Assembly: GCA_905331295.1 (NCBI GenBank)
Contig: CAJNYD010000253.1
Location: forward strand, 62,001-126,000
Direction of reading: 5' to 3'
From: Rotaria socialis
Lineage: Eukaryota
DNA: 64,000 nucleotides
Part shown: piece by piece, positions 15,032 through 51,682 of the stretch
How the letters are laid out: each line of letters begins with the position of its first letter
Numbering within the stretch: the first letter of the stretch is position 1
Notes under the pieces: model-generated
Seen by the model: only the letters and a program-made list of their open reading frames with translations
Database searches by the model: none
Told to the model about the DNA's origin: nothing
Position numbers and translations under genes: made by a program

Positions 15032-16629
15032 TGTAATGAATAATTCAAAGATGACAAATTAATTTTGCAGAAAACAAAATGTTCGCAAGGGAATAAAAAC
15101 TTGTTCCTTTTGTACAAGACACTGATAGCTATTGGTTGGGCTGTAAAAATAAGATCACTTTAGTTTCAAATATAATCATTCAAATCAAATAAAAAGAATT
15201 TCTTATTGAGATAAAAGAAAAATAATACTTTATGACATTTCTTCTATCCAATTGACGATTTATTCTTCAATCATACATCAAGTCGTTTTCTTATCTTTAC
15301 AGACACCTAAATCTAAGTAATTTATGACTATTATGAACAAACACTTATTATCCGAGAGTCCTTTCAAAGTCAATGCAAATAATAGTTTGAAAGTTAAACT
15401 TAACAAATACGAAAGATATCAATGAAATATAGTGAAAAACTGTAATCGACCGGTGACGAAGAGCTTTTCACTTTCGTATTGTTGTAAAAAAAATCAAGTG
15501 TTTAACATTGTAGACTAAGCATTTTTATTAAAGATTTATTGGTAGCTATTCCATGAAAAAGTCAATTTAGACAGCAAAGAACCTTACCGTTTATGTTACC
15601 GATAATAGCATCAATCTAATATCGGAGAGAGATGAAAATTTACGTGCAATCGTATTATACGCAAGTGTATTTTTGAACCAAAATCAAACATATATAAATA
15701 CTTTTTTCTTCCTTTAAAGTCAGTATAATTGGTGAAATTATATTGAATATCATGAATGAAATGATTAGTATGTTGTTTACAGCCCTTGAGTATCAAGTAG
15801 ACCCAGGTCGAACAAACTGACACTAAGATCAGGTATGAATTCTTGTATGATCATACGGAAAATCATACGAAAAATCGTCGTCGCTGACATCTGATGTCAG
15901 ATCTTACATCCGATTTCGTATATGATTTAACAGTACGATCTTACGTATGATTATATAAAATAGTACAAGATGATTTTAAGCCATTTCTTCATAAATATCC
16001 ATTATTAAATATTTTTACGCAGTCACGCAACTACAATTCTATCCTGAAAAACGACAACCGTACGAAACGTAAAAAGGGTTCCGAAAATTGCTGCGAACTC
16101 GAAATCATTTTAGGTTCCGTGCAAACCAGGTTCTCCACGAACCCTTTGTGGGAAAGGTCAAACATAGGGTTTCTCACACTGCTCTGTCTACTCAATGTAA
16201 TAAATCAGTTAAAAAGCTCTGTCTAGCAAACGCCGGTTCCTAGAAAACCCTTCTGGGGTTTCAGGGCTTTCATTCTCTCCCTTCTCAATCGAGAACAACC
16301 CGATCGTAACACCTCAGGGCAACAATGCGCGATTAGCTCCTGCAGAGACCAGCGACCAGAACGATCGACATAGAATGCTTGATCTAAACAGAAATAAATT
16401 ATTTTGAGAGGTTTTAGCTTTCAAAATTGAACTTACCTTTTATGTTTGATCATATGACACTTGACCTCAGGTGAAATGATAGACGTAATAATGGCCTGTT
16501 TGATTCATCTCATTATTGACTGAATACGGGAGACCTATTTTGCGTAGATAGTTACATCGGTAGCACTATTCTATTAATTATCTCTCTGAATAGCAACTGA
16601 AATTTTCACGCACTTCTCAATGTAAGAAA

Positions 16630-21369: not shown

Positions 21370-24300
21370 ATGACTATCAAGCATCAATGCATTGAAATCT
21401 GTGTAAACGAAAATGATATTGAGAAGGATCGACGACGAAAAGCTTTGCTCAATGATCCAAATTATGGAGTAGTGCTTTGTTTCCTGGATAAGTTTCGATC
21501 AATACTTGATTTACCGAATTATTTATTACAACGTTTTGAAGATCATCTTGTTAATTGCGAAGGGAAAAGTAAATTTCTTCAATAGATAATCAGTCTCGAA
21601 TAAAGATCTTGTTTAAATTAAGATTCATCACGTCTTATTGACTTTCATTTCACTCTTCTTAAACGATTATCTCTGGCAAGAAATGCTCAGCGTGACAAGT
21701 TCGATTCAATTGTTACTAAAGTAAATCAATCTTTTTCTTCTTTTTCTTCTTCTATTTTTGTTTTGCTCGCAAATAGTTTGCTGCTCGATTTGATGTCAAC
21801 GACAGTGAACATATAAAAACAACTGGCTATTTAAAAGCAAATGTCAATATAAAAATTCGAATAATAAAGGTAAATCAACATACGAAATAGTAATTATCTG
21901 TATGCGTACTCATCACTTTTATGTAAATTTTATTTTTAGAATTTACTCGAAAGTCAATTTGAAACAAAGCAGATGTTAAAAAAATGTTTAATTGATAAAT
22001 CCGCCTATGAACTCAAATCTTCACCATTAGGTCGTGATCGTTTTGGAGTTTCGTATTGGCTTTTTATGGTATGAAAATTTATTTAATGTAGTAATGAAGA
22101 TTTCGATTGAATTATCATAGGATAAAGATTGTTTCGTGCGGTTATTTCGCGAAGATATTGATGTCGATCGAACATGGACTAATATTGCGACGTGAGTAGA
22201 AAAACTAGTTACAATCGGAAAGATTTCTTTATTCCATTTTGTAGAAACCGAGATGAATTAAAAAAATTTATTGAAATATTAATTGCTGACCGTGTAGTTC
22301 GAAAGAAATTTCCTGGTAGGAAAAATGCGAAATTAAAATTCTCTATTGTTTATTTTACTCAATAGATTGGATTGTTAATTGTGAACAATTTTCTCCTGTA
22401 CTAACATCAGATGACTTTGAGCAAAATTATTTTCCTACTTCAGTCAGTCTAACAGAAGAAATGCAAACTATGTTGACTGATGATAGTGATACAGATTTCC
22501 CAATAAAGAAAACACGTCGACAATCAACAGCTTCACAAAACTCATTAAATATGTATAAAGACTTCGAATCGATAGAAGAGAATCGTAATAGTGATCAACA
22601 AGAAGAATCGTCTATTGATGATGTTTGTCCTTCGATACGTCGATCATCGCGACTTCGAAAACCAACAACAACTATTCCGCAGGTTTAAACCAATAGTACA
22701 TTGTAAACACGAATCTAATCCAAAAATCATTTCAGGCTTCTAGTGCAAAAAAGAAACGCCCAACAAAAAGTAAAAAGAATCTTTCAAACATTCGTCGTAA
22801 AACGAAATCTCGAAGGCACGATTATCCATACTCATCGACATCAAGTTCAGATGAACATGTCGATTATTCATCCGAAGATGAATACGATTCCGACGATTAT
22901 CTTCCTGACCAATCGCAAATTGATTTCGATAACAATTTATTCCAATTAGAAGAAGTTGATGAAAAAACGATAGAATTTCGTTCAGCTAAAACAGCTCAAA
23001 CATCAGCCCTTATAATATTTTGTTGTAAATGCTCAAAAGATGATCAACCGGAAGTTTTACTAATATGTGATGGTTGTAATGGTGCTTATCATTTAGAATG
23101 TTTACATCCTGTACTTTTATCGGTACCTCAACATGAATGGTTTTGTCCATTGTGTGAACATAGAAAATTATCCAATAGTTTAATTGAAAAATTCAAAGAA
23201 TTATTAATTAATTTGCATCAAACTGAAACAACACGAAGAATGTGTATTCTAAAAAAATCTTCGCCACGAAAAATTAAACCAAAAGTTTATACCAGTGATG
23301 AGAGTATTACAGAATCTGAGCACGAAAATTCTATGAATAATGACGAATTAGCATTTCAAATAAATGATAATACTAATCTATCATCGTCTTGTACTACTGA
23401 TGAAACTACTACTACATATAATATAAGTCAACGTGGTCGTCAGCGACATATTCGATTCGATATGAAAAAAATTTTCGATTCCCACGATGAATTTAATATT
23501 GATTCAGATACTGATGATGAATATAAAAGTGATATTAATTCAGAAACAACGAAATTCAATTTACAACTACCTAACCAAATTACTCGTTTACTTCATCGCC
23601 GTCATCGATCACCAACAAAAAATCATCAACGAACAAGAACACTCACACAATATGTAAGTAATTTTAATGAGTGAACAAGACTTAGAGAAGATATTAGAAT
23701 TTAAGTAGGTATATTGCTGAGGATTTTTCGAAATTTATCCATTCAATATATATTTTTAAAAAAAGCATGGACTGAAAAATGTAGCCCACTGTACTGCAGT
23801 GGCATATGCTAGTCTTGACCGTCTCTCTTTTTGCGCCTGATACATTTTAACTATCTCAAATATGGGCAGAGAACTGATAGAAAAATATCTTTTTTGTGTT
23901 CCTATTGAAATATTTCATTATTTTCTCTCTTATGTTAGAAATCAATTGATATTAATGAACAACTTGGCTCACCACTTGTTTATGTTAATTCTGATGGAAA
24001 TTCTGATCAAATAGAATCTTTTGTAACGAATTCTAAACAAACATCACAAATTGCACGTCGGTGGAATTATGTTCAACGGCGTAGTCGACTTAAAGTTATG
24101 AATATGAAATTATTAAATGAAACAATAGGACCTGAATGTGTTGATGAAAATGAATTATTTTGCCCGGATGATATGTCACTATCAAATGCTAATGATAGTT
24201 TAAGTAACAGTGAAATAAGAGATGAAGATAATTTAATGATGCATTCAAACATCAATTCAGTAGAATCAATAAATGTTGAATCAATTGAAAAATCTTCATC

Positions 24301-24705
24301 AAAAACCATTTTAAAAAAAGCAGACGCCAGTTTTGATCGACTTACTCGTGATATTCAATGTGCATTAACTGAGACAAATACATTTCCAAGTGTAACAAAA
24401 ACTAAAGCCACGTGTGTTGAATTTTTTTCTTTGTCTTTACAATAGTTTAAAATTATATTTCTAGCAGTGATCAACAGCCTGTTAAACGAACCACCAAAAT
24501 GCATCATTCGCTATATATGACAAAAGTTCCATATCGATCATTTCCATTGTCTTTGTTTCAATCATCTTGCAATGGATTTAATATTTTTAAAACGGAAGAT
24601 TTTTCAAATTCTAAATCTCTTTCAACTACTATTCAAACATCCTCTTCATTATCGCCTTTGAAAGATACAAATCTTGATCAAACATTACCGACGATGGATA
24701 TATAA
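21370..24705 (+). CDS. RSF1: RSF1-like chromatin remodelling factor (DDT/WHIM-type N-terminus, PHD finger), 10 exons
   Basis: In-frame GT-AG exons: 21370-21568, 21623-21720, 21777-21869, 21940-22068, 22121-22191, 22245-22315, 22366-22682, 22736-23653, 23939-24411, 24465-24705. Motifs DPNYGVVLCFLDKF and PLGRDRFGVSYW. PHD finger CCKC...LLICDGCNGAYHLECL...EWFCPLC at ~23020-23160. Confidence 0.8.
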
Positions 24706-26074
24706 TATTTGTTTCTATTGATTTTATTTTAGATTCTCAAATCAAGTCACATGTATTATTTTTTTGTATATATAGCTATTAGATACCGTATTTATGTTTG
24801 TGTCGACGATTAGCGCGTGTTACATGCTGAATACTAGAGTTAACGCTAAATAGAGAAGCATATCGATTATTATTATACTAAATTTTGTTTTATGGTTATG
24901 ATATCTAAATAATTTGCTTATATTAATAGAATTGGTTATTTGATTTATCATAAATAAATAATACTCAATCTCTAATTGATGATTTTAGGAAAAATATATA
25001 GATACGAATCTAGTACTAAGTCTATGTATGATATAAAGGGTGTAGGTGTGGCTCCATTGGTATTTAACTAATCGAGCAGTCCCTTATACCATACCCACTC
25101 CCTTGCTGTGTTATCGTTGCGCGGTAATAGGAAACTATTTTTTTGATTGAAACTGTCTCTAGTTATACATATCAGAGATTCGTGAGTCAGCCAAATCTAT
25201 CTTAAAAAATGATCTTTTAGGTAGTTTCTCAGTCCCCTACAACAATTAGTATGTTTTATTTCTTTATATCTCATTAAATACTGTTAATACATATAAATAA
25301 ATTAACAAAACAAAATTAAAAAATATATTTAGAGCAAAATTCTAATTCTAATCTTGCCTAGTTGGAACTAGAATTCAAGTACAGACCAGGATTTTCTGCG
25401 GGCAGCATTGAAATCATGATTGTGGCGAGAGAAAATTAGGATTCGACTAGAGATAACTTCATATCTTGAGGGTGTGGGGGTACATAAAAACACAAGATAC
25501 TCACACTCAGGCACCCTGTGGATTTTCAAGATATGCGCATTCTGTGAAATACCAGTTTTACTGTTAATTTAACTCCAGCTATTTGACTGATCAGAACAGC
25601 AGTGAGATCTCACCTGAGCTGCGAAGGCGCGTAAATAATGAAATCCAGCTAACATGCCTGAAACATGCAGACCCAGTGAAATTATCAACTCGCTAAACCC
25701 ACATCAGCATCGTGCACCCTACATGCATATCCTGGCATCATACTTTAGCAAGTCGATCTGATTTATAAATATCTAGCACAGCTCAATGTTACAAACAGTT
25801 TCCCTGGCGGTCTTTTGTCCGGCCACCTACAAATCTGTCATAGTGAAGGATTACTATTTGCTGGTACCTATGCTATTGATTATCCCACACACTGAGCAAA
25901 GAGTAGATTATCGTTATTTCAAGTGATAAAATTGATGAAATATCTATTTCGTTTAATCAAAAACTAACGAAAATTTCAAAAAAGGTTCAGTATTGATTTA
26001 ATATACAAAAAAATACCATTAATCACTGTAATCGACGTCCACACTGAAATTCTCTGTCCTAAACACTTCAGTAA

Positions 26075-27274: not shown

Positions 27275-30100
27275 GACTTCAGTTCGTTGATCCAATAGTT
27301 CACTCTAAAACAAACTAATATGATCAGAGAAACAGTTTTTGTCTAGAATCCAAATATGTGATGTGTTTTCTAAATATAAGTTTACTATCTTTGCTCGCAG
27401 ATATAAAAAATACTACTGTGTGCTAAAAGCGAGAATTTTCTCTACACTTCGCAACAGCTGGTGAATGCTCAATACATTTATACAGTGTCAGAATTACATA
27501 TTCAGCAATCTCTCAGGCAAACTGTCAACGTATGAGTGATGATTACCTTGAACAAAGACGATATTTGATATTTCTATCAGCGCATCTCCCTGTATTTCTA
27601 ATAGTAGTAGTAAGTCGTCAGACACCTAAGTATACAAGAGTTTTCAAATTTTCAAATGAATGTTTACACATTATTTCACCTAGAAAAACTCTCACTGGAC
27701 GATGGTTTGCGTAACTACTTCTATCACACTGAGGTAAATGCATGCAGAACTTCTAGAAACTCAGTAAAATCTTCGCTAAAGAAACTAAAAATCATCGCTT
27801 TTAACTCATTCTACATGATAAATGAGTGAATATTTTAACTGTCAAATTTAGCTTTTCATCATCACTTGCTGCATTAAATCAGGAATGCATTCGCTAGGTT
27901 TTATCAATTTTCATTTGAAAAAAGAAGAAGTTAACACACTTACTCAATTATTATGATGCTATAGATTCCAGTCTAGGGTTCATATAATCGAAAAAATTCA
28001 TGTATTAGTATAACTAAACGTTGGTAAAATTTGACTGTATTAACGAGGATTTAATCATTGCGACTAATTCACAATATGAAAAGTGTTCTCATGCGAGTTT
28101 TAGATTCGAAGTGAAATATCAAGCAATGAAAGAAAAAAATATATACTCATGCAAATGAGAACACTACTAATATATGCCCCTTAAAAAGGAAGTACGTTTC
28201 GATAAAAATATACACAATCATGATAACTAATTGAAACAAAAAGAAAACATTTAAAGGTATTCATTACTACCTCTTTTCACTTCTTTAAATTTTATCTTAT
28301 CTTTAGGAGTTCTTTGTAGCTAGAACAATATTGTGACAAGACAGTCAAACAGGTCAAAGAAGAATGTGCGTGAGAATTTTAAACAAAAAATTAATTATAT
28401 TTGAACTTTCGTCAGGCAGCCGATATTTTTTTCGGGATAGTCATCAAGGTAATACTATACACAAATTATCAACAAAAACTAAGAAAGACATATTGCCATG
28501 AGTAGATTACAGGGTGAGTGATGGTGGAAGAGTGTGCATGGGTATGAAACAGCTTGAGGGTGCGGGTATGGACGTGATTTTTTTATTGCAACACCCACAC
28601 CCACACCCGGCCTATTTACTGCCGTAAATATACCGTTTTGGCATCGTTTACCGTCGATAAACAGACTGTAAACGAGTCCGTTTTGATCAGCCTTGGTATT
28701 AAAATAAATATGGATATAAAAATAATTACTGAAGAGGGTGTGGGTGTGGGTATAAGTCTCTTACTCTCCGTCATGCACACCCACATCCCATCTAACCGCA
28801 CGTTCTAACACAAGAAGCAACGCAAAGAGAGCTCCATCTCTCAGAAAATAATCTCATCGACTCACAACAAGTCACATAGTAGTCGAGCTTTTGACGGCAT
28901 GTGATTATTTGTTAGTAGATATTTTTTTATTGAGTCAATCATTGAAAGGAATAAAAACTCTAGGATATCGTCCATCTTTCTTACGTCCACAACAAATTTA
29001 TAAACACGAGATTATCGTGCGCCAAAAAAACGAAATTAATAGATCTTACAATAAAGAATCTGATAATACTAAATATCTTTCATTGAGCAAGGCCAAAGGC
29101 TTTTTACTGGTGATTACTCGAATTATTGGATGGTTTACATTGACGACATACTGTGTGAGAGATTGACTGTGGATGACCAGGAAAATCTCTCTATCTTTGA
29201 GATGGAAAAGCATGAAGTCAAATGCTATCAACCAAGAGACAAGAATCAAAATTTTTCAGTTTGTGATTATGGTGAGGATACTCCTGTCAATGGATAGTAA
29301 TTATTTTGAATTTTATTTTGCCTGCCAGTCGACAATAGCTTGGTCCAATTAATTTACCGTAAAGGATTGTTGTCGATTAATTGATAGACTTCATATGATC
29401 GACATCGAAAACTATCAAATGATGCGAGTTAGTCTAAAGAAGTGAAACAGGACAATAGCAGAAGAAAGGGGGAAACCAAATCAGCATTTAGTTGGGCTTG
29501 TTTTTTCATTGATATGGCAAACCCTATACGTCCTCAATCACAGTTATCAACGAGGCCAATAACATTTCTTTACAATAAACTTCTTCAGATTAAAAAATTT
29601 TTCGTCATTGGTCTCGAATTAATTCCGTTGAATGACAACAGTAGTGAATTTCATTCCTATGCAATATGTACATACACCAGGTAGATTCATATAAACATGA
29701 AAAATATGACGAGTTTATCCCTCTTGATAAACCCAAACATAGTAACCTAATTGAATGAATCCTTCGGGAAGAAAGCTTAACACTTAATAATTGATATGCA
29801 GTTTGCTCGTATGCTAGATTCCACAATTTTCTTTATGATTGTAGGTTGAAATCACTAAGCACAAGAAATAGATGCCAAAATTGTACACACCATGCCGATG
29901 GTGTATCTACAGCATCAATACAAGCGATGTCGAAGCATTGAGGGTGTGGGTGGGTGTTGTATCTTTATCCAAACCACACCCACACCCATGTTTGAACCCG
30001 GGAATGGCATGGGCACTGATTTCATATCAATTCCTCAAAGTGGCGATCTATCTGTATTACAAGGATTTCAGTTCGCCACAACGCTCGACGACCCAGCATA

Positions 30101-31078
30101 TAGGGATGCACCAGTACCAGTATACTGGTTTCTACTTTCGAAAATAACTATTAGCTAAATGAGGCATTTTATCAGCTATCACTTCGTTTATCTATATTCA
30201 AGTGAAAAATTGAGTTTTGCAGCAGTTTGCAACAGTATAATATATTGTATACTCAACTAACTGATAGCGTTATCTAGAACATTTTTCAATGTTTTCCAAC
30301 GTGTTTGAAGAAAGAAGATCATTGATTCAGGTCGTAGTCATGGTAAAAAAAGAAATTGTGCTCGAAAATCTATATTGAGCATATTATATAGCACTAAAAG
30401 TCAGTCAATCGCGAAAACAATAAATGCATATGTTGGAAAGAATGACAATTGTCACTCGTATTAGTATTAAATAAGAAAATACTATTGATACGAGGGCAAC
30501 TTATGCACTGATTTTATTCAATACTAATAAAACTACGATATTGATGTGCCAGCTTCAACTTGTATGTATAAATCCAAAACGATAAAGAGTGAAGGACAGC
30601 ATTTTTGATTACATAAGTTAAAGGATTCTCTCAAACTATTGGTATCGTTACAAAATTGAACAGGTAATAGTGACATTGCTTGTTTACCGTGCTGTAATTT
30701 TCATTTAATACATGTATTATCTGTTGCATATCCGATATCGTGAACAAAAAAATGTCTAGCTTTAGCTATGCAACTTATATACATAAACGAATGCAATAAA
30801 TATGTGAAAATAGTGTCATTCGACTGAGAGAGAAGTAGAAAAATCAAGCCATTTACTTCTATGAGATTTATGTAACTAAAAGTTGATAAAGTTCAGTAAA
30901 TATACAATTTTTGTTTTCATGATCGATTAAAGCTAAGTTCAAGTTGGTATGTTAAACACTGTATTCCGATTCATCGGTTTATCTCATAAAATTGTTTTAC
31001 TATCTGACTAAGTCCATGAATGAGATTATGTTTTCTTCAGAAACATTTAAAACCATTGAAAAATGTTCTAGATAACGC
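30101..31078. mobile_element. hAT-type foldback non-autonomous element, left end intact, right arm truncated
   Basis: Starts TAGGGATGCACCAGTACCAGTA, preceded by CCAGCATA. 30265-30300 is mirrored at ~31050-31080, where the arm is cut by a MITE. The complete right arm and matching TSD are at 58650-58904. Confidence 0.75.
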
Positions 31079-31307
31079 TAGGGTGGCACTTTAACTTTAA
31101 ACTGACAGTAAAGTGCAGAGTTTAAAGTCGTTTAAAGTCACGCTTAAATGCTTCTTTATGGCGTTTCATCCGTTGCAAAGAGTCTCATAAGCATGACTAA
31201 ATACGTCAGTACAGTAAAAAGTATTAAAAATAAGCGTTTAAAGGCGACTTTAAACAACTTTAAACTTTAAACTTTACGGTTAAAGTAAAGTTAAAGTGCC
31301 ACTCCTA
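31079..31307. mobile_element. MITE with TAGGGTGGCACTTTAACTTTA termini, at the duplication breakpoint
   Basis: Near-perfect ~21-bp inverted termini and TTTAAA-rich interior. The 8-bp flanks do not match (GATAACGC vs CTCACACC). Confidence 0.8.
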
Positions 31308-31322
31308 CTCACACCCACACCC

Positions 31323-31373
31323 TCAAGCATAACTGATGAGCCCCTTCACCAAGGACGAAACGCGTCGTGTTGA
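31323..31373 (+). ncRNA. Minimal type I hammerhead ribozyme-like motif (Penelope-type), probably degenerate
   Basis: CTGATGA (31333-31339), then stem II G..CCTT-cacc-AAGG..C, then GAAA-CGCG-TC. Predicted cleavage after C31366. Stem I (TCAAGCAT / GTGTTGA) is imperfect. Confidence 0.65.
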
Positions 31374-31675: not shown

Positions 31676-34600
31676 CTAAGTTGTTCTTTGGATAGATTCT
31701 TTGATAGCTTCCATGAGAGGATTATCATTAGTTTTTCTGTTTTCATTTTCTTGATGAACGCCCAACTCATAGTCCATAAGATTCCAATGGCTTTCACGAA
31801 ATGAATAAAGACAAGTACTCCAATTTCTTTTGTAGCATTCACTTAGTAGATCACGAAGATATTCGGATGCTCCAGAAACGTTCCTGGAAATGCCTAACTC
31901 TCCGACCAACACTTGATGCTTCGACTTCAAACCAAGTACTTGTGTAATGATTAGCTCTATATCGTCAAATAGAGAATTGACACGTGACGAATTCCATTCT
32001 TGAGAGAGAGCATATGGACCATCATAGTTAGGTACTATGCCAGGATAGGCGAATCGACCCTGATTAAAACGATGAGTGGTTAGCAATCGAGGCTCATACA
32101 TGTGAAACGAAACTTTGAAAAGGTCAGCGTCATTAGCATGCAATGAAAGTGGGCCACGGTCAAATTTCAAGAAATGTAAAGCACGCCAATTAGCCCAAAA
32201 GGATGACTCAATAATAACTGGTGTATTATTATCTTCACGTCGAATAGCATCAATAATCTCTGCATAATAAATCATTAACTTATTATCATCTGATGAATGA
32301 TCGCTTAGAAATAGATCATCGACGCACTTTTGTTCATCAGATGCTGTATATGGTTCATTAATCAGGTCGTATCCTATTACATTATTTATTTTACCCAGTA
32401 CGGCTGCTAATTGTTGCCATATCTGTGGGGACGCTAGATGACGATGAAGTGTTAGAATCACTTGAATGTTATGCTTGCTGAATAAATCAATATAGGAAAC
32501 AAGGCGTTGTAAAGCGGAAGATGAAATACATCCCATGCATTGCGGAAGAAGATATGCAAGATCGGATATGTTAGTCTCTTGAGTATCTTCCCAGATAGTC
32601 GTACAACAAGCACCAAGACGAACGACTCGAACATTCATGTGTTGTAAATCACGCATATCTGCAACTGTTAAACACATCGGTACGTTATATCCAATGAATG
32701 AACTTTGCCAAATTGCCGTCTTCATCGTGTGCACTATAGATGGAGCTTTAGAAATATTAAAACGCGGCCAGCCCTTCAGCATATGATAAATATACAGTTT
32801 CATACGCGTCTCTCTTACTTTCGGGTTGAGATACAGTGCGATCGTAGAATCATCCGCTGATGGTGTTTTAGTATACATGTTAGATGCAGCAATTTTGCAT
32901 AACTGATAACCAAAGTAATGATTCAAGACGAACGATAACCAATAATCGTCAACAAGTATAAATTCTTTCGTTGGCATATCAATGCTGGCTGCATCTCGTA
33001 GAGCTTGTCTTGGAAAAAGACAACCATCAGCATGGGCAAAATGAATCGTGTCAGGAGGCTGGTTATCGTCAATGAAAACTACGCTTACTCCATATTCCCA
33101 TCCGCCAAGTTTAGGATTCTCTGCATTGAGAGTATGCGGTAGAAATTTATGACCATGTAAGCAAAGTATAGCGCGCGCACCATAATTATTACGTCGTTCG
33201 ACAAAAGTTGACAGAAACCGTTCACTAGGTATCATATCATCGTCAATAGTTAATAACAATTCACTATTCATCAAATGAAGCATACACATACGTACAATAC
33301 AATAGTAGTTATCACTCGAATGTATCATGCGAATGCGTTTATTCAAAAGACCGCATATTCGTTCAACTTCTGAACGACGGTCAAAATCATTGTTCCACAG
33401 AATCACTTCAAAAGTTCCATTAAAGTCTTGTTCATATAGAAGGGCTCGTAGGATGCGAAGAAGATCTTCTGTTCGTCGGTAGGAACAAATACATATGGTC
33501 AGGTCAACACTTGGAAACTCTGTTTCAGGAGACTCAGGTAGTGCCAAATATGAGGCACTATTGGCTATTGAACGTATAAATGCTTCAGACGTCAGATGAT
33601 CTTTATTCATATTAGCCAAATAATTCATTGCACTTAATTGCAAATAATTCTTGTTATTCACATCGGAACTAAGTAGACTTGCTGCCTGATCAAGAGAGTC
33701 AAAAAATAGAGGATAGTCACGACCAAGATATTCTTCCATTGATTGAAAACGGCGAACCATGATCGGAGTACAACTCCATATACATTCTATTAGAAGTGTC
33801 GATGCTATGCCATCACTTTTTAGACTAAGAAATGGAATACTTGTTAATAACAGCTGCTCATATTCCTCATCTGATAAGCGATTTATAATCTTAATGTTAA
33901 ATTGAGACGCACATTCATGAAGATATTTTTGACGAATTTTATCCGTTTCATTTAATAATATGATCTTTTCGAAATTATTCGGTACAACTAACTTTAAAAA
34001 GTCATCTATATCGCGCATATAACCACCGATCATCACAACTGATGAGCGTGCATTCGTCGTTATTGACTTTTGAATCCTTCCACTGATCGGATAGAAAAGG
34101 CGACTAACAGGAATATCGACCGAAAGACTCTTTGGTAATCGAAGTTTTATGTAATCACATAAATATGTAGATAATGCAAAGAGTCCTCGGCAGAAATTAA
34201 GACTAACAAGAAACTGAGGAGAATGCAAAAGTCGTTCAACATCGGGCATCCAAACAGTATTGGAGACAGGTGCCTGGTGTACAATACCTACCCATGGCTT
34301 TTGAAGCTGATAATCACATTCGAAAAAGTATTGTTCAACAGTAGGTATAAACAGAGTAGGTGCACAATCATGATGAAGCTGGTTTTTAGCAATATCAATC
34401 ACGGCACAAAAACCACCGGCTCGATGATGATTCCAGTCAGAAGGTAAGGCAGCAAATTTCAATTTCTTCTTGATTTGAACGAGTGATTCTTGTTTAACTG
34501 TTATATCAGATGCTTTACCAAGAAAAATGAAGGCTTTTGCAAACGTTGCTGGTTTGTATAGCGGTTTCCATTCATTAAGGTATTGTTCGACAAATCTACA

Positions 34601-37429
34601 GACGCCTTGAGCCAACCCATATGTATGAATAACAATAATTGTTTTATTAGGTATTAATTGATGCTGTAGTGATTGCCAAAGTTCTTCCAGTTCTTTTTCA
34701 TTATCACTAATATCTACATAAATAAGGTCAAGAGGTTTCGTAAAAATATGTGCCAACTCAGGCCATGTGCTTGTATCGTAATTTAGTTGAACTGGAATAG
34801 CCACAGTATTCGTGTCTATATTAATAAATTTATTGATGTTAGCTTTGAATTCTTCCAGAAATTGACGACCAACGGCTCGCTGTTTCCACGGCTTCAGATG
34901 ATTGTTCATCCACTGCTGCCAACAAAATCCATCGAGCGCGATGAAATAAATTGGATTCATACTATGTTGGCGAATAGCGTGAAGTAACTGTACAGACGTA
35001 CCACCTAACCATGAACCGAGTTCAACTAAAGAATAACATTCATTTTTAACAGCTAACCAACACAATAGCTGTTGAACTTCTGTCGGTGTCGTTGTTGGTA
35101 TATTAGTTTCTATGAGGGTGAAATCCAGCCAAGGAGAACGGAAGGTTTGTATCGGTAACAGATGATTTTGTGTTCGTATTTTTTTCAAATACTGTCCATA
35201 GTATGTAAGAGATGATCTTAGTTCATTATCCAAGCTAGATTCATCAGCCAGTTTATTCAGCAAAGATTCTATAGCTTTACACAGTGACCAACACTCGCGG
35301 TGAATGCCGAAAAATTTGTGAATACAATCAATCGCACGAACAGCATCAACGAGGACTTGCCTATCTTTTACAGTACTTCCTCCAAATGACTCAAACAGAC
35401 CCGTGCAATTGTTCACTATTAATGTAATAGGTGATGAAATCGATAATGTGTTATTCGTGGGCATTTTCCAGTCTTTACTTTTATTGTAAAACGCAATAAT
35501 AGCTTGACAAATATTGAAAACGTCATCCTCTCTAAGCCAGTAATGTGAAGGTAAATAAAAACCTATCTCAGCTAATCGCATCGCATGTGGACATGTGGCA
35601 CGAGCAAATGTAGGTAAATTATCAAAAGCTGCTTGTATATTGAGGGATGGAAAATAGTTACGTGTTTCAATCCCGTGCTCAAAAGCTAAATAATGACGCA
35701 AACGATCACGGTCCATGCGTGATTGGCACTCAATACCAAAAACCCACGGCCCATCAGCATCGCCTGCGCGTGGTGAAAATTTTATGTACTCAGTGATCGC
35801 ACACAATCCCTGTCGATACCACTGAGCCATACAGCTACGATGATGGATCACTTGAGATATTTGTTTTATGGCCGGCGTTACAAGTGCAGCTCCGAGTCCA
35901 TTAATTTTACCATTTATACACGGCTCAAAATGAACGAAATGATAGCTAGGCGTGAAGCCATGATTCACAATAGACGCCAACCGGGTAGCTACGGATGGAT
36001 CCTTCGATAATACGAAGCCCCCATCACCTGCAGTGATTATTTTATTCGCGTACAGACTGGCACACGCATACGAACCGAAAGTACCAAGTAACTTCCCATT
36101 AATAGTGACACCTATGCTTTCACTAATGTCCTCAATCAGTAACCAGTTATTTTTTACACACATATCATGTAACTGTTCGATATCTGCAGGGATTGAATAT
36201 GTATGTGTAACAATTATGGCTTTAATTTTGTAATTTTCAGGAACAAGTCTAGCCGCTTCATCATATTCATCTACACCCGGATTATATTTATCACAGCTGT
36301 TATCAACAAATATTGGTGTTGCTCCTGCATAAAGCACTGCGTTAGGTACAGCAATCATAGTAAATGATGGAACAAGGACACAATCATTAGAGTCTTCTCC
36401 AATGTGTGCTGATTGTAACGCTAACAAGAGTGAAATAAAACCGTTTGCACACGGCTGTGCGACGGGTACATCGAAGAGACGACGTAGTTCATGAGCCATC
36501 TCTGCAACTGGATACGCGGCCGATGAAATCGAATGTGAAACCAATGATTTAAATACGTTGGACAATGCATGGTATGAAATGAAAGGTACAGCCACTCGAT
36601 ACGTCCATGTGCCTGAATTTGGTTTTGGTTCTATATCAGGCCACCATGGCTGTGTCTTCAGACTATGGCGAAAACGTACATCATCGAACAGTTTATCAAC
36701 CTGAAGCTGAGCGGTTTTGCAATTTTCATTTAATGTATTCCAATTCATAATGCTGTCAGCAGGGTTACTTGGATTTTGCTTCTTCATAGCAGTCGTGACT
36801 GTTATATCTGATAGACCACATGCAAAAAATATAGGTTTTAAGGAATCAGTTGGAGCTCTAGTTAAGTCTGTATATTCAATTATATGATACGGAACACTTG
36901 TGCCGATCGCTTCAGCTATTGTTTCCCATTGTTTTTTCAATCTATGACAGTATTGGATGAATTTTGTTTCATCAACATACACTTTTATTCCACGATTGAT
37001 ATTTTCTTCGGTTTCTGTATACCAACAGTCTGTTTTTTGAGCAATTTTCAACGAAACGAATGAATCTAATAAACTTCGTCGCCACATGACTATGACAAAA
37101 TTGATATTCAGGCGACGAATGAGATATAAAGGTTCTATATTTCGATCAAATAGTTGACAGACGTGAAGTTTAAAGCCTTCGATGCTGTCTGAGCAACAGA
37201 CAGATAACGAATTGTCAAGTTCTTCTAAGAGAGTCGGTATATTTTTTGAATAAACTTGTTTTTCATCATTCAGCAATTCGCCGTGTAAAAGAATTCGAGG
37301 ATGGCACATAAGATAAGAACTAAGTAAAGAAGAACCCGAGCGCGGATGACTCAAAATGAGAATGCGAAAGGCACTTCGTCGAGCGCCGGTTGCATGTTGA
37401 ATACAGGAATCAGTGCTTGTAGTTTCCAT
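31676..37429 (-). CDS. 1917-aa fused carbohydrate-tailoring enzyme: sulfotransferase + DegT-family PLP aminotransferase + SAM methyltransferase + GT-like domain + GT2 + GH5 glycoside hydrolase
   Basis: Single ORF. Motifs: HPRSGSS and RRSLLDSFVS (Stf0-like PAPS binding); VPSFTMIAVPNAV, IEDISES and SLYANKIITAGDGG (PLP Lys at 36041-36043); VELGSWLGGTS and IYVD; EEYLGRDYPLFF; TICICSYRR and TIDDD; GYDLINEP (E at 32354-32356), FHMYEP and VGELG (E at 31898-31900). Confidence 0.92.
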   Translation of the reverse strand: METTSTDSCIQHATGARRSAFRILILSHPRSGSSLLSSYLMCHPRILLHGELLNDEKQVYSKNIPTLLEELDNSLSVCCSDSIEGFKLHVCQLFDRNIEPLYLIRRLNINFVIVMWRRSLLDSFVSLKIAQKTDCWYTETEENINRGIKVYVDETKFIQYCHRLKKQWETIAEAIGTSVPYHIIEYTDLTRAPTDSLKPIFFACGLSDITVTTAMKKQNPSNPADSIMNWNTLNENCKTAQLQVDKLFDDVRFRHSLKTQPWWPDIEPKPNSGTWTYRVAVPFISYHALSNVFKSLVSHSISSAAYPVAEMAHELRRLFDVPVAQPCANGFISLLLALQSAHIGEDSNDCVLVPSFTMIAVPNAVLYAGATPIFVDNSCDKYNPGVDEYDEAARLVPENYKIKAIIVTHTYSIPADIEQLHDMCVKNNWLLIEDISESIGVTINGKLLGTFGSYACASLYANKIITAGDGGFVLSKDPSVATRLASIVNHGFTPSYHFVHFEPCINGKINGLGAALVTPAIKQISQVIHHRSCMAQWYRQGLCAITEYIKFSPRAGDADGPWVFGIECQSRMDRDRLRHYLAFEHGIETRNYFPSLNIQAAFDNLPTFARATCPHAMRLAEIGFYLPSHYWLREDDVFNICQAIIAFYNKSKDWKMPTNNTLSISSPITLIVNNCTGLFESFGGSTVKDRQVLVDAVRAIDCIHKFFGIHRECWSLCKAIESLLNKLADESSLDNELRSSLTYYGQYLKKIRTQNHLLPIQTFRSPWLDFTLIETNIPTTTPTEVQQLLCWLAVKNECYSLVELGSWLGGTSVQLLHAIRQHSMNPIYFIALDGFCWQQWMNNHLKPWKQRAVGRQFLEEFKANINKFINIDTNTVAIPVQLNYDTSTWPELAHIFTKPLDLIYVDISDNEKELEELWQSLQHQLIPNKTIIVIHTYGLAQGVCRFVEQYLNEWKPLYKPATFAKAFIFLGKASDITVKQESLVQIKKKLKFAALPSDWNHHRAGGFCAVIDIAKNQLHHDCAPTLFIPTVEQYFFECDYQLQKPWVGIVHQAPVSNTVWMPDVERLLHSPQFLVSLNFCRGLFALSTYLCDYIKLRLPKSLSVDIPVSRLFYPISGRIQKSITTNARSSVVMIGGYMRDIDDFLKLVVPNNFEKIILLNETDKIRQKYLHECASQFNIKIINRLSDEEYEQLLLTSIPFLSLKSDGIASTLLIECIWSCTPIMVRRFQSMEEYLGRDYPLFFDSLDQAASLLSSDVNNKNYLQLSAMNYLANMNKDHLTSEAFIRSIANSASYLALPESPETEFPSVDLTICICSYRRTEDLLRILRALLYEQDFNGTFEVILWNNDFDRRSEVERICGLLNKRIRMIHSSDNYYCIVRMCMLHLMNSELLLTIDDDMIPSERFLSTFVERRNNYGARAILCLHGHKFLPHTLNAENPKLGGWEYGVSVVFIDDNQPPDTIHFAHADGCLFPRQALRDAASIDMPTKEFILVDDYWLSFVLNHYFGYQLCKIAASNMYTKTPSADDSTIALYLNPKVRETRMKLYIYHMLKGWPRFNISKAPSIVHTMKTAIWQSSFIGYNVPMCLTVADMRDLQHMNVRVVRLGACCTTIWEDTQETNISDLAYLLPQCMGCISSSALQRLVSYIDLFSKHNIQVILTLHRHLASPQIWQQLAAVLGKINNVIGYDLINEPYTASDEQKCVDDLFLSDHSSDDNKLMIYYAEIIDAIRREDNNTPVIIESSFWANWRALHFLKFDRGPLSLHANDADLFKVSFHMYEPRLLTTHRFNQGRFAYPGIVPNYDGPYALSQEWNSSRVNSLFDDIELIITQVLGLKSKHQVLVGELGISRNVSGASEYLRDLLSECYKRNWSTCLYSFRESHWNLMDYELGVHQENENRKTNDNPLMEAIKESIQRTT

Positions 37430-38631
37430 AGATTAATTTCGCTTTTTCGAGATAGTAAAAAAGAGCCCTAAAAGGGAGAAAATATACGTCAACCAGATGG
37501 AAGGGTCGGTACTTTCCAAAAATACAATGCTCCGCATTTTTGAAGCGTCTCTGTTTTATTTTGAAACGTTAAATTTTGTTCCTATCATAGGGAAATTGGA
37601 TATACTGTTTTGGTGAACATATAATAAGATTTAACAATTGCCACTAGTGGATAGTGCTAGGAGTTTTAGCCTAGAAAGGGGAATGAGATTCTGCTCGTAA
37701 GTTTACTACAGTGCAATTAGTTTTTGGAAGGTCAGTTCTTCTATTAATATGAGCTTTGAAAAATTTTGGAGGAGCTCAAAAGTAATTTTAGAAAAATCTG
37801 TTCTCTACAACCATTGTGAAGTTACCGTTAGTTATCACTAGAACAAATTTCAATATTCGTAGGCTTGTCGATGGAAAAATGTCAGAATTCCTACCTATCA
37901 AAGAGATAGGTTCGACTATGACAGGCATGATTACATTCTGCGAAAGCTTCGAGTACATATTTTGACAGAAGGAAAAGGTTATTCTTTGATTAGAGGAAAA
38001 CAAGCCATCGATGACGATTTCGTGGCAATATTATTGGGAAAATCCTATGATAGAATTTGGGAAGCAGAAAATCTTTGATTACATATGTTTTATGGTTCGA
38101 ATATAGATATACTCATGTAATGATATTGTTTCTACTCTTTTGGGACATCTTGGTTTATTCTTGTCCTTTCCGCGAATGTATTTATTTCGCATCTGTTTCT
38201 TACTCTCATCATTTTTCTCTTTTGGTTGCAAATATACGTGTAGGATTCGTATATATATAGGGTGACTCTTGATATGAAGATATAGAATATAGCTTAGTTC
38301 CATAAGCGCTAGCAGCACTTCTATTAGAAAATCGTCGCAACTCGGATTTCAAGGTAGGAACTAAATGCATGCAACTTAACCCTTTCAATCCTGCATATCA
38401 TCTCGCAGATGACGTACAGAACGAATAAAGAATATCTTGCGTTCTCTAGTCTTCTTTAACAACGTATATCATATGTTGTCTGTTAAAAAGATAGTGTCTT
38501 GCCTCTATCTATAATGTATCTTCGTTTTGAGTGCAGCTGATTTTGATAGCTGAACGCAAAAGCGAATGTGGGTGTGTGGCTCTTGATCAGAAATAGACTC
38601 ACACTCACACCCTAGTTCAAGTACGTTTATT

Positions 38632-47831: not shown

Positions 47832-50800
47832 ATGGCTACAATACAGTGCCGAAAGCGAAAACGCAAAGGTAATTCATTCGGAGATTTTTGGGCAAAAAGA
47901 CTGATACACTAATTTGTCCTTTAGATTCAGCCGATGAACAGGAATGGAATACTGCAAATTTACTCAAGAGCCTGCAGAAAAAGGAAGGCTTATGTGAATT
48001 ACACACACATCTTCTAGGAATGGGTAATGCTTCATTTTGGGTGGATACAATTTTAACTGATCGAAGGATATTACCGACTCAAGATCATTTTATGAAAAAG
48101 AATCAAAGTAGTCTCAGGCGTGACTTAGGACCTTTAATATGGAACGATAGCATACAGCAGTTCATCGGTTCAGAACAGGTTTTCAATTTCTTTGGCTATC
48201 TCAGTTCACATGACTCATTATTACCTGAATATAAGGATATGAAGCCCTTTTGTGATTTGATATCGGAAGAGTTTGAAAAAAAGAAGGATCATCACAAGCT
48301 TACATACAAGGAGAACTTTTCTTATGATGTTGTTTTTTCATTGGAAAACATGGTAAAAGGGCTAGGATTGAAACAAAATCAGCCCAGAGATATGCTTCAA
48401 TGTGTAATCGAAGAAAAACTGGGTATTTATACAAGAAGTGATTGGAATCATCATTTTTTCTTCAAATATTGGATCATATTTAATGCAAGAGAACAAAAAC
48501 TAGAGATTATATATGGGATGCAAGCTGCAGATCTACGAATGCTTATTGGAGAAACCAAGTCCATTGACAAGCTAGGTAACACAGCTAAACGTGATGCTCG
48601 TGCACACATCATAAATGCGTTTTCGATGATGAATAGCGATGGTACAGAACCACGTTCAGTAGACTTTCATTCATTTCGTGGCGCATTTACACCAGAATTT
48701 TATCCTAGGCGATTTGCTTTAAAGGACTCATTATATACTCAGCGACTGGATTTATTAGTGTATCTCTTACAACATGTACTACATCGTTATTCAACATGTG
48801 TGCCGCCGGTGAAATATTGTGAATTTTCAGTTGGATGTGGCGATTTAACCCGTCCTTGGATGTTGGATGTTCTATCGACATTTTGTATTAGAGAAGAGTT
48901 GCATGGTTCATTTAAATCTCTGATAGATAAGAATTGTTTTCCATGGCTCAAAGCGTCAACTTCTGAACTAAAGGTTGATTATCGTTTTTTGGCTGGTTTC
49001 AACCGTCAAATTGAGCCGATTAATGACTCTTATACTCCTGATGAAGCGATTCCATTTTTATTCGAAGCACCTCACTTTGTTATTCACGCACTATTCAAGG
49101 AGTTCTACTTAACTGACAATCAAAAGCCAACTCTTTTATTCCGTAAGCAAGTACAGCAGTTGAAGGCAATGAAAACGCAAAAGGATACAAATCCTAAATT
49201 TTTGAACTTGGTTGTAGGTTTAGATGCGCTTGGTGACGAGCTTGGGCATCCCTGTTGCCCTTTTGTGGCGCATGAGTTCATAGAGTTTGTTAGAGATGCT
49301 CGGAAGCATAATCGAACTTTTGGCGTGCGTATACATGCCGCAGAAAACGCACCTTTTATTCGACCAGATTTGCCAGGCTATCGTTTATTTGCAGCGCATA
49401 TGTATATTCTTTACCGTTGCATTGACTTTTTAAAAAGGAAACTGCAGACAAACATTCGCGTGGGCCATGGTATTGCTTTTGATAAACTATTAAGCATCAA
49501 AAACTATAAATTTCGAAAGTCTAGCGTACTTGTGGCACAAATGAAAAGAGATGCTAAGTCAGTTTTCTCCGAAATTCCCTTTGAAGTAAATATAACAAGT
49601 AACTTTTATCTTTTGGGAGGTGCAATCAGAAATGTAAAGAAAGAAAAACCTTTATCTAATTTATACGATATAGAAGTTCCTGTCGTACTGTCAACTGACA
49701 ACGATGGAATATTGCCAATCGATAGGTGTGATCTTGGGCATTATTCGCATCATTCATTAGCTGCTGAATATTGTCGCGCAATCGTTACTCGTTTCATTTC
49801 AAAAGAAGAACACTTAGATCGTATGATTCAAACCTCATTTAATTCTAGATTTGCTCATAGTAAGCCCATAGAAAGAGTGAACTGGGTCAACCAAAATACA
49901 TCACATTATAACAAAGATGAATGCTACTTTCCTACAGATATAATTGTGCATCCAACTCTACTTGATATGCTTTTCAAAAGTCAAGCGTCTGTCAATGATA
50001 GGCCATCCGTATTCTTACAGTATTATAGAAATATACATAGTGAGTCAAACGTTGAGGGTCCCATAACAGATTATGATAAAATTATGATGCGTCTTTTAGT
50101 CGCATTTTTTTATTTGATGCGCGCTCGCCCTTATAAGGAGTTTAAGGAAGACTATGAAAATTTGTTTCCACCTCCCTCTGAATGTAAACACCGTTACAAA
50201 GAAATATTCACTCAGGAAGGCTGTTTAAAGATCTATGAAGTATGCAAAAAAGTACATTCGTATTTAATGACAGACACACCTAATAGAGGTGCCTATATGG
50301 AAGTGGAAGTCGATAGCGAATACTATTTATTTTGTTCGGAGGTACCTAATAATAGGAAAAGTAAACCAACTCTCTTACTGCAAAATATAAAGGAATTCAT
50401 GAACAAACGTATCAAGAATATCATAATATTTAGTTTTCTTTCAAGCATCGACGAAAATAATAATGAAATAATCGAGAATCTTCAGGAAATCGACACACTT
50501 CTTAGGGATCCGAGTAGTGAAGTAAACAGGGTTTTTCTTTATACAAACACTAAAAAAGACCTAGTTTTTCCGTTTTTAAAAAGTGGGAAAATATTCATCA
50601 ATAATAAGCCTAGTATGCGTACGGATGCGACGGAAGACGAAATTGAATCTGTATTACTTTATGCGATCTGTCCTCACTCTAGTGTCGTAACTTCTTGTAT
50701 TCACTTTATTGCAAAACACATCCATAAAAAAGGCTTCGCGATCAAGACGCGTCACGTAGATTTTCGTTACCTTGTTATTCCGTTTTTACCGTTAAATTTC

Positions 50801-51682
50801 GGTTTCACCATTGAAGGTACGAGTGAAAACCCCAAAACACAGTTTTTACAGCACTTTCATATTAGTGGAACGAATTTTGCGAAAGAAGTAGTCGTACGAG
50901 AACATGATGCATGTGAGCAACTATATGAACGACAATACAATATACTTTGCGCTGATATCAGGTACCAAAAACAAATAGAAACGAAAGATCTTCTAAAAGA
51001 AATAGGCAAATCTAAGTTTGACTTTCTTAACCTTTTGAGGATTTTGTGTGGGTCCATTAAAAACTTTAGTTTATGGCCTGCATTTTTTGTAATACTAAAC
51101 GATGTGAATGAATATAATTCCTATACAACAGATTTTGGCAATAATAATAATAATATTCCAGTGCCTATTATACAAATCGATCAGCACTTTTTGATTTGCA
51201 GTTGTGTTAACCTTTATGAACGACACCATGATAAATGGTCCTCTTGTCTTTGGTCTTTAGCTACAAGCTGGAACCCACCCTTAAACTCTGTCAATAATCC
51301 GCATGCATATCCCTATGTTACATGGACCTTAAAAATATTCGAAATCGGCAGAGAAAAACTCAATAAAGAATTCGGAGTAGATACATGGGAAGAGCTTCTG
51401 ACAAAAGTTTTACTTGATGGGGATCAACGAGCTTGGTATTCTGATACGGTTAATTATTGGTGTGACGTAATCGAGAAAGCCTTTCGCGATGAAGAGAACG
51501 TGCATTTTTTCGTCGAGTTCTTAAAAAAGTCTGATCAGTCGAAAAAGCTGTTAGCAATATTAAATGATGGAGGACGTCATAAACTAGGTAATCAATGGCA
51601 ATTAGACGTAATAGAAAAGCGTCAAGCTAAACAAATTTTGAATAAGCTAAAAGAGACGATGGAACAGGCTCTAATCTGTTGA
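47832..51682 (+). CDS. Large adenosine/AMP-deaminase-fold protein (1264 aa) with unknown C-terminal half; 2 exons (47832-47868, 47925-51682)
   Basis: Metal and catalytic motifs ELHTHLLG, VGLDALGDE, IHAAE, RVGHG, EVNITSN, STDNDG. The track start is a TTG inside a 56-bp GT-AG intron with a CTAAT branch site. Exon 1 (MATIQCRKRKRK) splices in frame. Confidence 0.88.

What the first reader, a model, noticed from the sequence alone, without database searches (positions are those of the whole stretch)
31676..37429. Six-enzyme sugar-tailoring assembly line encoded as one intronless animal ORF
Seen, N to C in one uninterrupted 1917-aa ORF: Stf0-like sulfotransferase (~37370-36700), DegT/DnrJ/EryC1/StrS aminotransferase resembling GDP-perosamine synthase (~36600-35490, catalytic Lys present), class I SAM methyltransferase (~35100-34520), GT-like domain (~34460-33550), GT2 with DDD (~33510-32770) and GH5 with both catalytic Glu (~32700-31690). 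No obvious signal peptide or TM segment. Known: these families are usually separate genes in bacterial O-antigen, capsule or glycoside operons, and DegT-type sugar aminotransferases are not standard animal enzymes. Inference: a horizontally acquired, operon-derived cytosolic megasynthase making a sulfated, methylated amino-sugar glycan or glycoside. Host GDP-mannose 4,6-dehydratase, PAPS and SAM could supply the substrates, and GH5 could release or trim the product.
Basis: partly seen in the sequence, partly recalled or inferred. Interest (0 to 1): 0.92.

Follow-up and report, generated by a model that had tools for sequence, protein, structure and literature searches.

The report
Six-enzyme sugar factory in one protein
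A bdelloid rotifer gene encodes six bacterial-type sugar enzymes in one 1917-residue protein, the same fusion occurs in a tardigrade, springtails, fungus gnats, another rotifer group and a golden alga, and it likely builds an undescribed sulfated amino-sugar chain inside the cell.

Summary
The 1917-aa ORF is real, and all six domains hold up by profile and predicted fold: NodH/Stf0-type sulfotransferase, DegT aminotransferase, sugar-O-methyltransferase-like domain, GT4-like GT-B, a GT-A (fold closest to heparosan synthase/EXTL2), and GH5. Catalytic residues are conserved and dN/dS is 0.11-0.30. The host is Rotaria. The gene is not a rotifer one-off: 30 of 88 retrieved proteins carry all six domains, including Paramacrobiotus, Orchesella, Bradysia, Brachionus and the chrysophyte Epipyxis. 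Bacteria of several phyla carry the same parts as a cassette with GT-B/GT-A(/GH5) already fused; one operon (L021) holds all six behind an NDP-sugar dehydratase. Sponges have the aminotransferase unfused, and an animal-like contig holds a clustered unfused set. Trees support one fusion event, and rotifer monophyly is rejected under LG+G4, which points to eukaryote-to-eukaryote transfer or old paralogy. Best reading: a cytosolic one-chain pathway that likely makes an amino-deoxysugar (probably GDP-perosamine), builds a short glycan, methylates, sulfates and trims it. The product, the substrates and a single full-length transcript are untested. Nine literature searches found no description.

The parts
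31676..37429 (-). single ORF, 1917 aa, six-enzyme fusion
   Evidence: 100% (rounded) to a Rotaria socialis protein
36665..37387 (-). NodH/Stf0-type carbohydrate sulfotransferase (aa 15-255)
   Evidence: profile to NodH E 5.5e-23, Stf0 3.4e-13; Stf0 Z 14.3, rmsd 3.4, 194 aligned; R30, G32, S33, K87, R117, S126 kept in 17-19 of 19 rows
35480..36646 (-). DegT/DnrJ/EryC1/StrS sugar aminotransferase (aa 262-650)
   Evidence: PF01041 E 4e-55; best PDB match GDP-perosamine synthase E 9e-33, aligned; D434 and K463 invariant in 11 of 11 rows
35135..35467 (-). helical linker (aa 655-765), likely the N-terminal extension of the bacterial methyltransferase
   Evidence: hhalign probability 90%, E 1.5e-6, 69 columns, against N-termini of 10 bacterial stand-alone methyltransferases
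34505..35134 (-). class I SAM methyltransferase, sugar O-methyltransferase-like (aa 766-975)
   Evidence: MeT1 Z 14.6, rmsd 3.1, 190 aligned; SpnH Z 14.4; G805, G809, D833 in 29 of 29, D906 in 28 of 29; Pfam below cut-off
33530..34477 (-). GT-B glycosyltransferase, GT4-like (aa 985-1300)
   Evidence: HepE Z 20.4, PimA 20.2, SenB 20.0, mycobacterial MMP mannosyltransferase 19.4; E1215 in 38 of 38; no Pfam hit
32750..33529 (-). GT-A glycosyltransferase (aa 1301-1560), between GT2 and GT45/GT64
   Evidence: PF00535 E 6e-8; profile best to chondroitin synthase 6.6e-9, heparosan synthase 2.5e-6; fold: heparosan synthase 2 Z 20.0, rmsd 3.1, 220 aligned, EXTL2 Z 18.7; D1396-1398 and D1494-1495 in 39 of 39
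31679..32737 (-). GH5 glycoside hydrolase (aa 1565-1917)
   Evidence: PF00150 E 8e-14; Z 24.9 to TtEnd5A; N1691-E1692 and E1844 invariant in 10 of 10 rows

Best explanation
The gene encodes six sugar-enzyme domains with conserved catalytic residues in one chain, likely derived from a bacterial gene cassette that fused once in eukaryotes, and the protein likely works in the cytosol as a one-chain pathway for a short sulfated, O-methylated amino-sugar glycan. Shown: the domains, their conservation, the bacterial cassette, the spread of the fusion. Inferred steps: (1) the host's GDP-mannose 4,6-dehydratase supplies the 4-keto sugar and the PLP domain aminates it, most likely to GDP-perosamine (about 55%); (2) the GT4-like domain transfers that sugar and the GT-A domain adds a second one, probably a HexNAc, in the manner of an exostosin-like two-site polymerase; (3) the methyltransferase caps or O-methylates a sugar hydroxyl and the sulfotransferase adds sulfate from host PAPS; (4) GH5 cuts the chain to set length, release it or regenerate primers, as the hydrolase does in the mycobacterial MMP cycle. 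A protective role (antimicrobial or stress) in small organisms of microbe-rich habitats is a guess.
For: Domains and residues. Purifying selection in every domain against L001, dN/dS 0.11-0.30 (dS 1.1-1.8, near saturation). Cassette: of 16 bacterial genome loci picked by the GT-A motif, 15 have the aminotransferase, 15 the GT-B, 12 the dehydratase-like SDR, 10 a sulfotransferase, 7 the methyltransferase, 3 GH5; L021 has all six in four genes after the SDR. GDP route: best PDB match of the aminotransferase is perosamine synthase, of the L021 SDR a GDP-6-deoxymannose reductase, and the L081 nucleotidyltransferase scores best to mannose-1-phosphate guanylyltransferase (below cut-off). Sulfate supply: L084 has ATP sulfurylase/APS kinase in the cassette; the Brachionus model has an extra N-terminal ATP-sulfurylase-like part. 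Same GT-B then GT-A module matches EXT1/EXT2 and heparosan synthase. The methyltransferase and GT-B match MeT1 and the mannosyltransferase of the cytosolic MMP system (PMC9883506, abstract and Introduction). One fusion: fused rows form one clade in GT (100), methyltransferase (100), sulfotransferase (89) and concatenated trees (100).
Against: No enzyme assay, product or localisation. The bacterial SDR scores better to LegB and RmlB (E 1e-57, 9e-48) than to Gmd (9e-18), all below cut-off, so the donor may not be GDP-mannose-derived. GH5 enzymes cut beta-links while GT4 and GT45/64 make alpha-links (established knowledge), so either the GT-A inverts or GH5 acts on a primer or aglycone; the C-terminal half of the GT-A gave no informative match. 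GH5 is in only 3 of 16 bacterial loci and only 1 of 32 bacterial loci tabulated has all six parts; no bacterial locus seen shows the fused order. RNA-like contigs cover the gene only in pieces. The aminotransferase part of the N-terminal model is partly low-confidence. A host Gmd gene was not checked, as no genome is held.
Confidence: 0.6

Rival explanations
1. The enzyme makes a small defensive glycoside (di- or trisaccharide, aminoglycoside-like) and not a repeating chain; GH5 activates or recycles it.
For: Bacterial cassettes include APH-family kinases (3 of 16 genome loci and most GH5-bearing soil loci), ABC exporters, PIG-L deacetylases, GT20/HAD, radical SAM and transketolase pairs, which recall secondary-metabolite clusters (own knowledge). 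Bdelloids up-regulate acquired biosynthetic genes against a fungal pathogen (PMC11258130, search listing and two passages).
Against: The GT-B/GT-A pair resembles polymerases EXT1/2 and heparosan synthase. No aglycone-forming gene is fused or linked in eukaryote loci.
Confidence: 0.2
2. It makes a long, exported sulfated polymer (glycosaminoglycan-like coat or matrix), with GH5 clearing stalled chains.
For: Fold matches to heparosan synthase and exostosins; a GH5 from a cellulose synthesis operon (CcsZ) is among fold matches.
Against: No clear membrane segment or signal. In the 117 neighbour proteins scanned no Wzx/Wzy/Wzm-type family was reported (best five families per protein).
Confidence: 0.1
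3. It decorates a protein or lipid acceptor with a fixed sulfated amino-sugar cap; GH5 removes it from the aglycone.
For: Endoglycoceramidases and a sterylglucosidase are among GH5 fold matches; related GT-B domains are common in viral contigs, where glycans usually sit on proteins (own knowledge).
Against: These matches rank below endoglucanases; no acceptor-binding domain is seen.
Confidence: 0.07
4. History rival: the fused gene is old in eukaryotes or animals and was inherited vertically as two paralogues with heavy loss, without eukaryote-to-eukaryote transfer.
For: Stand-alone aminotransferases of the same clade occur in a demosponge and three homoscleromorph sponges; two Rotaria proteins are only 52% identical, so old duplicates exist; tardigrade, mite and hexapod rows fall on one side of the tree.
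Against: Brachionus sits with the mite and not with bdelloids, rotifer monophyly rejected at p-AU 6.9e-5 under LG+G4; a chrysophyte has the full fusion and dinoflagellate aminotransferases nest among fused rows; the only insects named are two sciarids, the family for which transfer from mites is reported for terpene synthases (PMC11665903, abstract).
Confidence: 0.35

Closest known systems
GDP-perosamine synthase (Caulobacter, PDB 3bn1/3dr4) and bacterial Gmd-Per O-antigen modules
   Same: Best solved match of the aminotransferase; the active-site lysine motif aligns with K463; an SDR dehydratase lies beside the aminotransferase in the bacterial cassette.
   Different: Here fused to five other enzymes; below every NCBIfam cut-off; no N-acyltransferase in the fusion; the cassette SDR is not a Gmd by score.
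Exostosin EXT1/EXT2, EXTL2 and Pasteurella heparosan synthase 2
   Same: Tandem GT-B then GT-A module; fold matches.
   Different: No membrane anchor or signal; carries its own donor-making, methylating, sulfating and hydrolysing domains; 10-17% identity.
Mycobacterial methylmannose polysaccharide system (ManT, MeT1, MmpH; PMC9883506)
   Same: Intracellular short glycan made by a GDP-mannose-using transferase, an O-methyltransferase and a hydrolase; MeT1 is the top methyltransferase fold match, and the mannosyltransferase matches the GT-B.
   Different: Separate genes; an alpha-endomannosidase rather than GH5; no aminotransferase, sulfotransferase or GT-A.
NodH / Stf0 carbohydrate sulfotransferases
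   Same: Profile and fold match, conserved PAPS-site residues.
   Different: Acceptor unknown; fused.
Acquired NRPS/PKS genes of bdelloids (PMC11258130)
   Same: Large multi-enzyme biosynthetic genes of foreign origin in the same animals.
   Different: Sugar chemistry, no carrier domains; perosamine, aminotransferase and sulfotransferase are not mentioned in that paper's main text.

Membership tests
DegT/DnrJ/EryC1/StrS aminotransferase (PF01041) | profile above cut-off with PLP lysine and aspartate | tested here: met
   188 bits against 19.8; K463, D434 invariant
GDP-perosamine synthase | acts on GDP-4-keto-6-deoxymannose | not testable with these tools
   best PDB match but about 26% identity; needs assay
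LegC / PseC / WecE / ArnB equivalogs | NCBIfam score above cut-off | tested here: not met
   best 165.6 against 420
Stf0/NodH-type sulfotransferase | fold and PAPS-binding motifs | tested here: met
   Pfam alone is below cut-off
Sugar O-methyltransferase (MeT1/SpnH/TylF-like) | class I SAM fold with glycine motif; methylates sugar hydroxyl | tested here: inconclusive
   fold and motif met; O- versus N-methylation not testable
GT4 (retaining GT-B) | GT-B fold with C-terminal conserved glutamate | tested here: inconclusive
   Z about 20 to GT4-type enzymes, E1215 invariant; no Pfam hit in this protein, weak PF00534 in relatives
GT2 (inverting GT-A) | PF00535 match plus GT2-type C-terminal catalytic region | tested here: inconclusive
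   N-terminal half passes Pfam; C-terminal half gives nothing informative
GT45/GT64 (retaining GT-A) | fold of heparosan synthase GlcNAc-T / EXTL2, retaining alpha-HexNAc transfer | tested here: inconclusive
   Z 20.0 and 18.7; PF09258 only below cut-off in relatives; stereochemistry not testable
GH5 | TIM barrel with acid/base and nucleophile glutamates | tested here: met
   52.1 bits against 23.5; Z 24.9; E1692, E1844 invariant; subfamily not determined
Exostosin family | type II membrane anchor and secretory-pathway location (own knowledge) | tested here: not met
   N-terminal hydropathy maximum 0.74; GT module is internal
Horizontally acquired, integrated gene | bacterial nearest relatives, host-like context, introns or selection, expression | tested here: met
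   bacterial cassette; GC3 0.30 within neighbours' 0.17-0.38 and dN/dS 0.17; interrupted sulfotransferase frames in eukaryote-like relatives L011, L013, L017; RNA-like contigs of a close relative. Direction rests on distribution, not on a rooted test

The most novel reading that the evidence does not exclude
A whole bacterial glycan operon was captured early by eukaryotes, survives as a clustered unfused set in sponges, was welded once into a six-enzyme glycan megasynthase, and that single gene then moved between rotifers, tardigrades, mites, springtails, fungus gnats and algae, giving them an undescribed cytosolic sulfated perosamine-containing glycan: a sugar counterpart of NRPS/PKS assembly lines in animals.
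Probability: 0.35. Interest if true: 0.95.

Novelty: new variant of a known kind. Interest (0 to 1): 0.86.

Why it matters
Animals are not thought to make 4-amino-6-deoxy sugars or to build sulfated glycans in the cytosol (own knowledge). A single chain that would make its own donor, polymerise, decorate and trim points to an unknown class of animal glycan, in culturable hosts (Bradysia, Orchesella, Brachionus, bdelloids). The series bacterial operon, unfused animal-like cluster, six-domain fusion is an unusually complete record of how an operon becomes one eukaryotic gene, and one intronless gene is a unit that can move between eukaryotes. The GT-B/GT-A pair and its bacterial cassette also seem undescribed and are directly assayable.

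Tried and rejected
Contaminant or chimera: rejected (many Rotaria assemblies; spanning contig and depth like the flanks). Rotifer-specific recent transfer: rejected. Viral shuttle: a language-model search pointed to giant-virus GT proteins and 80 viral loci carry the GT-B family, but 0 of 80 have the GT-A, aminotransferase, methyltransferase or GH5 (11 have a sulfotransferase-like gene), the 25 viral rows used form their own clade, and scans with GT-A and aminotransferase patterns found none. Plasmids: 120 records, none covering 80% of the bacterial GT-GT-GH5 protein. No RNA holder was listed for the run search; runs X12, X13, X14 gave only short pieces. No GT2 chain appeared in the top 50 fold rows, a list dominated by GH5, which excludes nothing. 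The methyltransferase was not found in the 20-Mb bin behind L096 (incomplete). Full-length Atlas search gave no usable hit. The careful tree and the mixture-model AU test did not finish. No whole genome is held. Earlier findings: none by sequence or words. Literature searches without a description of the fusion. 'perosamine' and 'DegT' were absent from 2 of 3 supplements of PMC4987106 (one not searchable) and 4 of PMC4784904; supplements of the metazoan HGT compendium PMC13342648 could not be read and may list a member.

Full report
Observation. The ORF 31676-37429 (-) encodes 1917 aa without a stop. Pfam passes DegT, GT2 and GH5 and gives sub-threshold sulfotransferase and methyltransferase hits. 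Profiles built from animal and bacterial relatives match the first domain to NodH (E 5.5e-23) and Stf0 (3.4e-13), the methyltransferase weakly to O-methyltransferases, the GT-B weakly to SenB (E 0.02) and the GT-A to chondroitin and heparosan synthases. AlphaFold models of the two halves (mean pLDDT 69 and 77) match Stf0 (Z 14.3), DegT enzymes (Z up to 23.5), MeT1 (Z 14.6) and SpnH (14.4), and GT4-type enzymes (Z about 20), heparosan synthase 2 (Z 20.0), EXTL2 (18.7) and GH5 (24.9). Expected catalytic residues are invariant or nearly so. The stretch between aminotransferase and methyltransferase resembles the N-terminus of the bacterial stand-alone methyltransferase.

Host and reality. The nearest protein is 100% identical (rounded) and named Rotaria socialis; I used it (P0001) for the window in trees. 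Its cluster has 21 members; 10 of the 15 listed are 1917 aa, from R. socialis and R. magnacalcarata. A DNA contig spans the ORF with 3 differences at depth like the flanks (may be the source sample). Run X9, guessed to be RNA from a close relative, skips intron-sized stretches in the neighbouring PHD gene that two DNA runs do not skip, and its contigs cover five pieces of the ORF, bridging the GT-A/GH5, GT-B/GT-A and aminotransferase/linker junctions. This suggests transcription of the orthologue but not one full message. Of the 25 X9 differences listed inside the ORF (150 further rows not shown), 17 are at third codon positions; dN/dS against L001 is 0.17 overall and 0.11-0.30 by domain.

Spread of the fusion. 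Of 88 proteins examined carry all six domains (the profiles were built from 12 of them). Named ones: Rotaria socialis, Rotaria sp. Silwood2, Brachionus plicatilis, Paramacrobiotus metropolitanus, Orchesella cincta and O. dallaii, Bradysia odoriphaga and the chrysophyte Epipyxis. Partial models come from the mite Dinothrombium and the sciarid Pseudolycoriella. Most others are unnamed. Epipyxis is at most 37.5% identical to 13 others compared, so it is not a copy of a sampled animal gene, though its flanks were not seen. Three eukaryote-like loci have the sulfotransferase frame interrupted at a similar place, consistent with an intron gained after fusion. The searches use shared words and caps, so absence from other animals is not proven.

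Bacterial cassette. GTDB gave 17 loci; 16 are bacterial (titles include Actinomycetota, Bacteroidota, Acidobacteriota, Verrucomicrobiota, Melainabacteria and Pseudomonadota; one is unclassified) and I set L096 aside. Counts within the fetched stretches: GT-A 16 (by selection), GT-B 15, aminotransferase 15, SDR 12, sulfotransferase 10, methyltransferase 7, DUF6492 5, GH5 3, APH 3 (one SDR and one sulfotransferase hit are weak). GT-B and GT-A are already one protein in most, with GH5 attached in many soil loci. L021 reads SDR, aminotransferase, GT-B/GT-A/GH5, sulfotransferase, methyltransferase; it is the only one of 32 bacterial loci tabulated with all six. The SDR and nucleotidyltransferase are absent from 9 of 9 fused loci checked and from the window. 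That fits supply by the host but is weak, because eukaryotic genes need not be linked. The SDR's best solved match is a GDP-sugar reductase, while NCBIfam prefers LegB/RmlB over Gmd, all below cut-off.

An unfused eukaryotic stage. L096 is titled a Stappiaceae bin but has low gene density, kelch genes and a GT-AG intron in the GT-A. It holds separate genes for the aminotransferase, GT-B/GT-A, sulfotransferase and two GH5 proteins with a degenerate GT-A. Its aminotransferase belongs to a large stand-alone family (134 hits among 8000 scored) that includes Amphimedon, two Oscarella species, Corticium and two dinoflagellates. I read L096 as sponge-like from this kinship; clustering in named sponges was not checked.

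Trees (quick IQ-TREE, SH-aLRT only). All eukaryotic aminotransferases form one clade (99) with fused and dinoflagellate rows nested (100). Fused rows are one clade for the GT pair (100), methyltransferase (100) and sulfotransferase (89) and the concatenation (100), with L096 as sister in the concatenation but beside L021/L022 in the sulfotransferase tree and unresolved in the GT tree. Bdelloid-type rows separate from the rest (100); Brachionus joins the mite (89-95). Forcing rotifers together is rejected under LG+G4 (p-AU 6.9e-5; 19 of 27 rows, 8 dropped as long, gappy or redundant; three constrained rows are unnamed). The mixture model gave the same topology on 15 rows but its AU test was killed. 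Brachionus has odd composition, and old paralogy would give the same pattern. No donor phylum can be named.

Mechanism. See Best explanation. The closest working analogue is the intracellular MMP cycle, where a hydrolase makes primers for a GDP-mannose transferase and a methyltransferase caps the reducing end (PMC9883506, abstract and Introduction). The GT-B then GT-A order mirrors exostosins. The main unresolved point is stereochemistry: GH5 needs a beta-link.

Literature. Nine searches found no account of the fusion or the cassette. Seen: passages of PMC11258130, PMC12198962 and PMC4784904; abstract and outline of PMC11665903; supplements of PMC4987106 and PMC4784904. PMC13342648 supplements were unavailable. 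Databases name members only as 'GDP-perosamine synthase', 'aminotransferase' or 'uncharacterized'. The library lacks most subscription papers.

Verdict. Real, conserved and apparently undescribed: a six-enzyme fusion of bacterial cassette origin, patchily spread over animals and at least one alga. Function is inferred. Interest 0.86.

Noticed in passing
L096 (record OZ219999.1): Contig titled as a Stappiaceae bin looks like animal (sponge-like) DNA: intron, kelch genes, low coding density; it carries an unfused cluster of the pathway genes.
   Followed up: partly
P0056 aa 22-299 (Brachionus plicatilis): Extra N-terminal PUA/ATP-sulfurylase-like region in front of the six domains; could be a seventh enzyme supplying activated sulfate or a gene-model merge.
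   Followed up: partly
P0006 aa 1-567 (Rotaria sp. Silwood2): Long N-terminal extension without a Pfam hit; may be a merged upstream gene.
   Followed up: no
window 47873-51682 (+): 1269-aa uninterrupted frame with only a weak adenosine-deaminase-like hit (E 0.08); possibly another unusual single-exon gene.
   Followed up: no
window about 37460-37480 (-): Pyrimidine tract ending in AG about 35 bases above the ATG, so a 5'-UTR intron is possible although the coding sequence is uninterrupted.
   Followed up: no
window about 28590-28750 and 30100-31330: High-copy repeats downstream of the gene (depth in the thousands); the RNA-like run of the relative joins 31418 to 28785, so the insert may be absent there.
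   Followed up: no
window 13229-15058 (-), 22697-24757 (+), 59406-60554 (-): Ordinary neighbours: M28 peptidase with PA domain, spliced PHD-finger gene, EamA transporter. The transporter is 22 kb away; no link shown.
   Followed up: no
window about 57320-58020: Run of N (assembly gap), which explains the low GC and spurious frames there.
   Followed up: yes
L001 8013-10025 (-) and 11110-12921 (+): A fused homologue is followed by a STELLO-type glycosyltransferase gene and an ABC transporter gene.
   Followed up: no
L097-L176: The GT-B family is widespread in viral contigs, including giant-virus bins, as a separate clade; 11 of 80 have a sulfotransferase-like gene nearby.
   Followed up: partly
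P0224, P0244: Other partial fusions in different orders (GT-B/GT-A/methyltransferase; GT-B/GT-A/aminotransferase), suggesting that the cassette fuses repeatedly.
   Followed up: no
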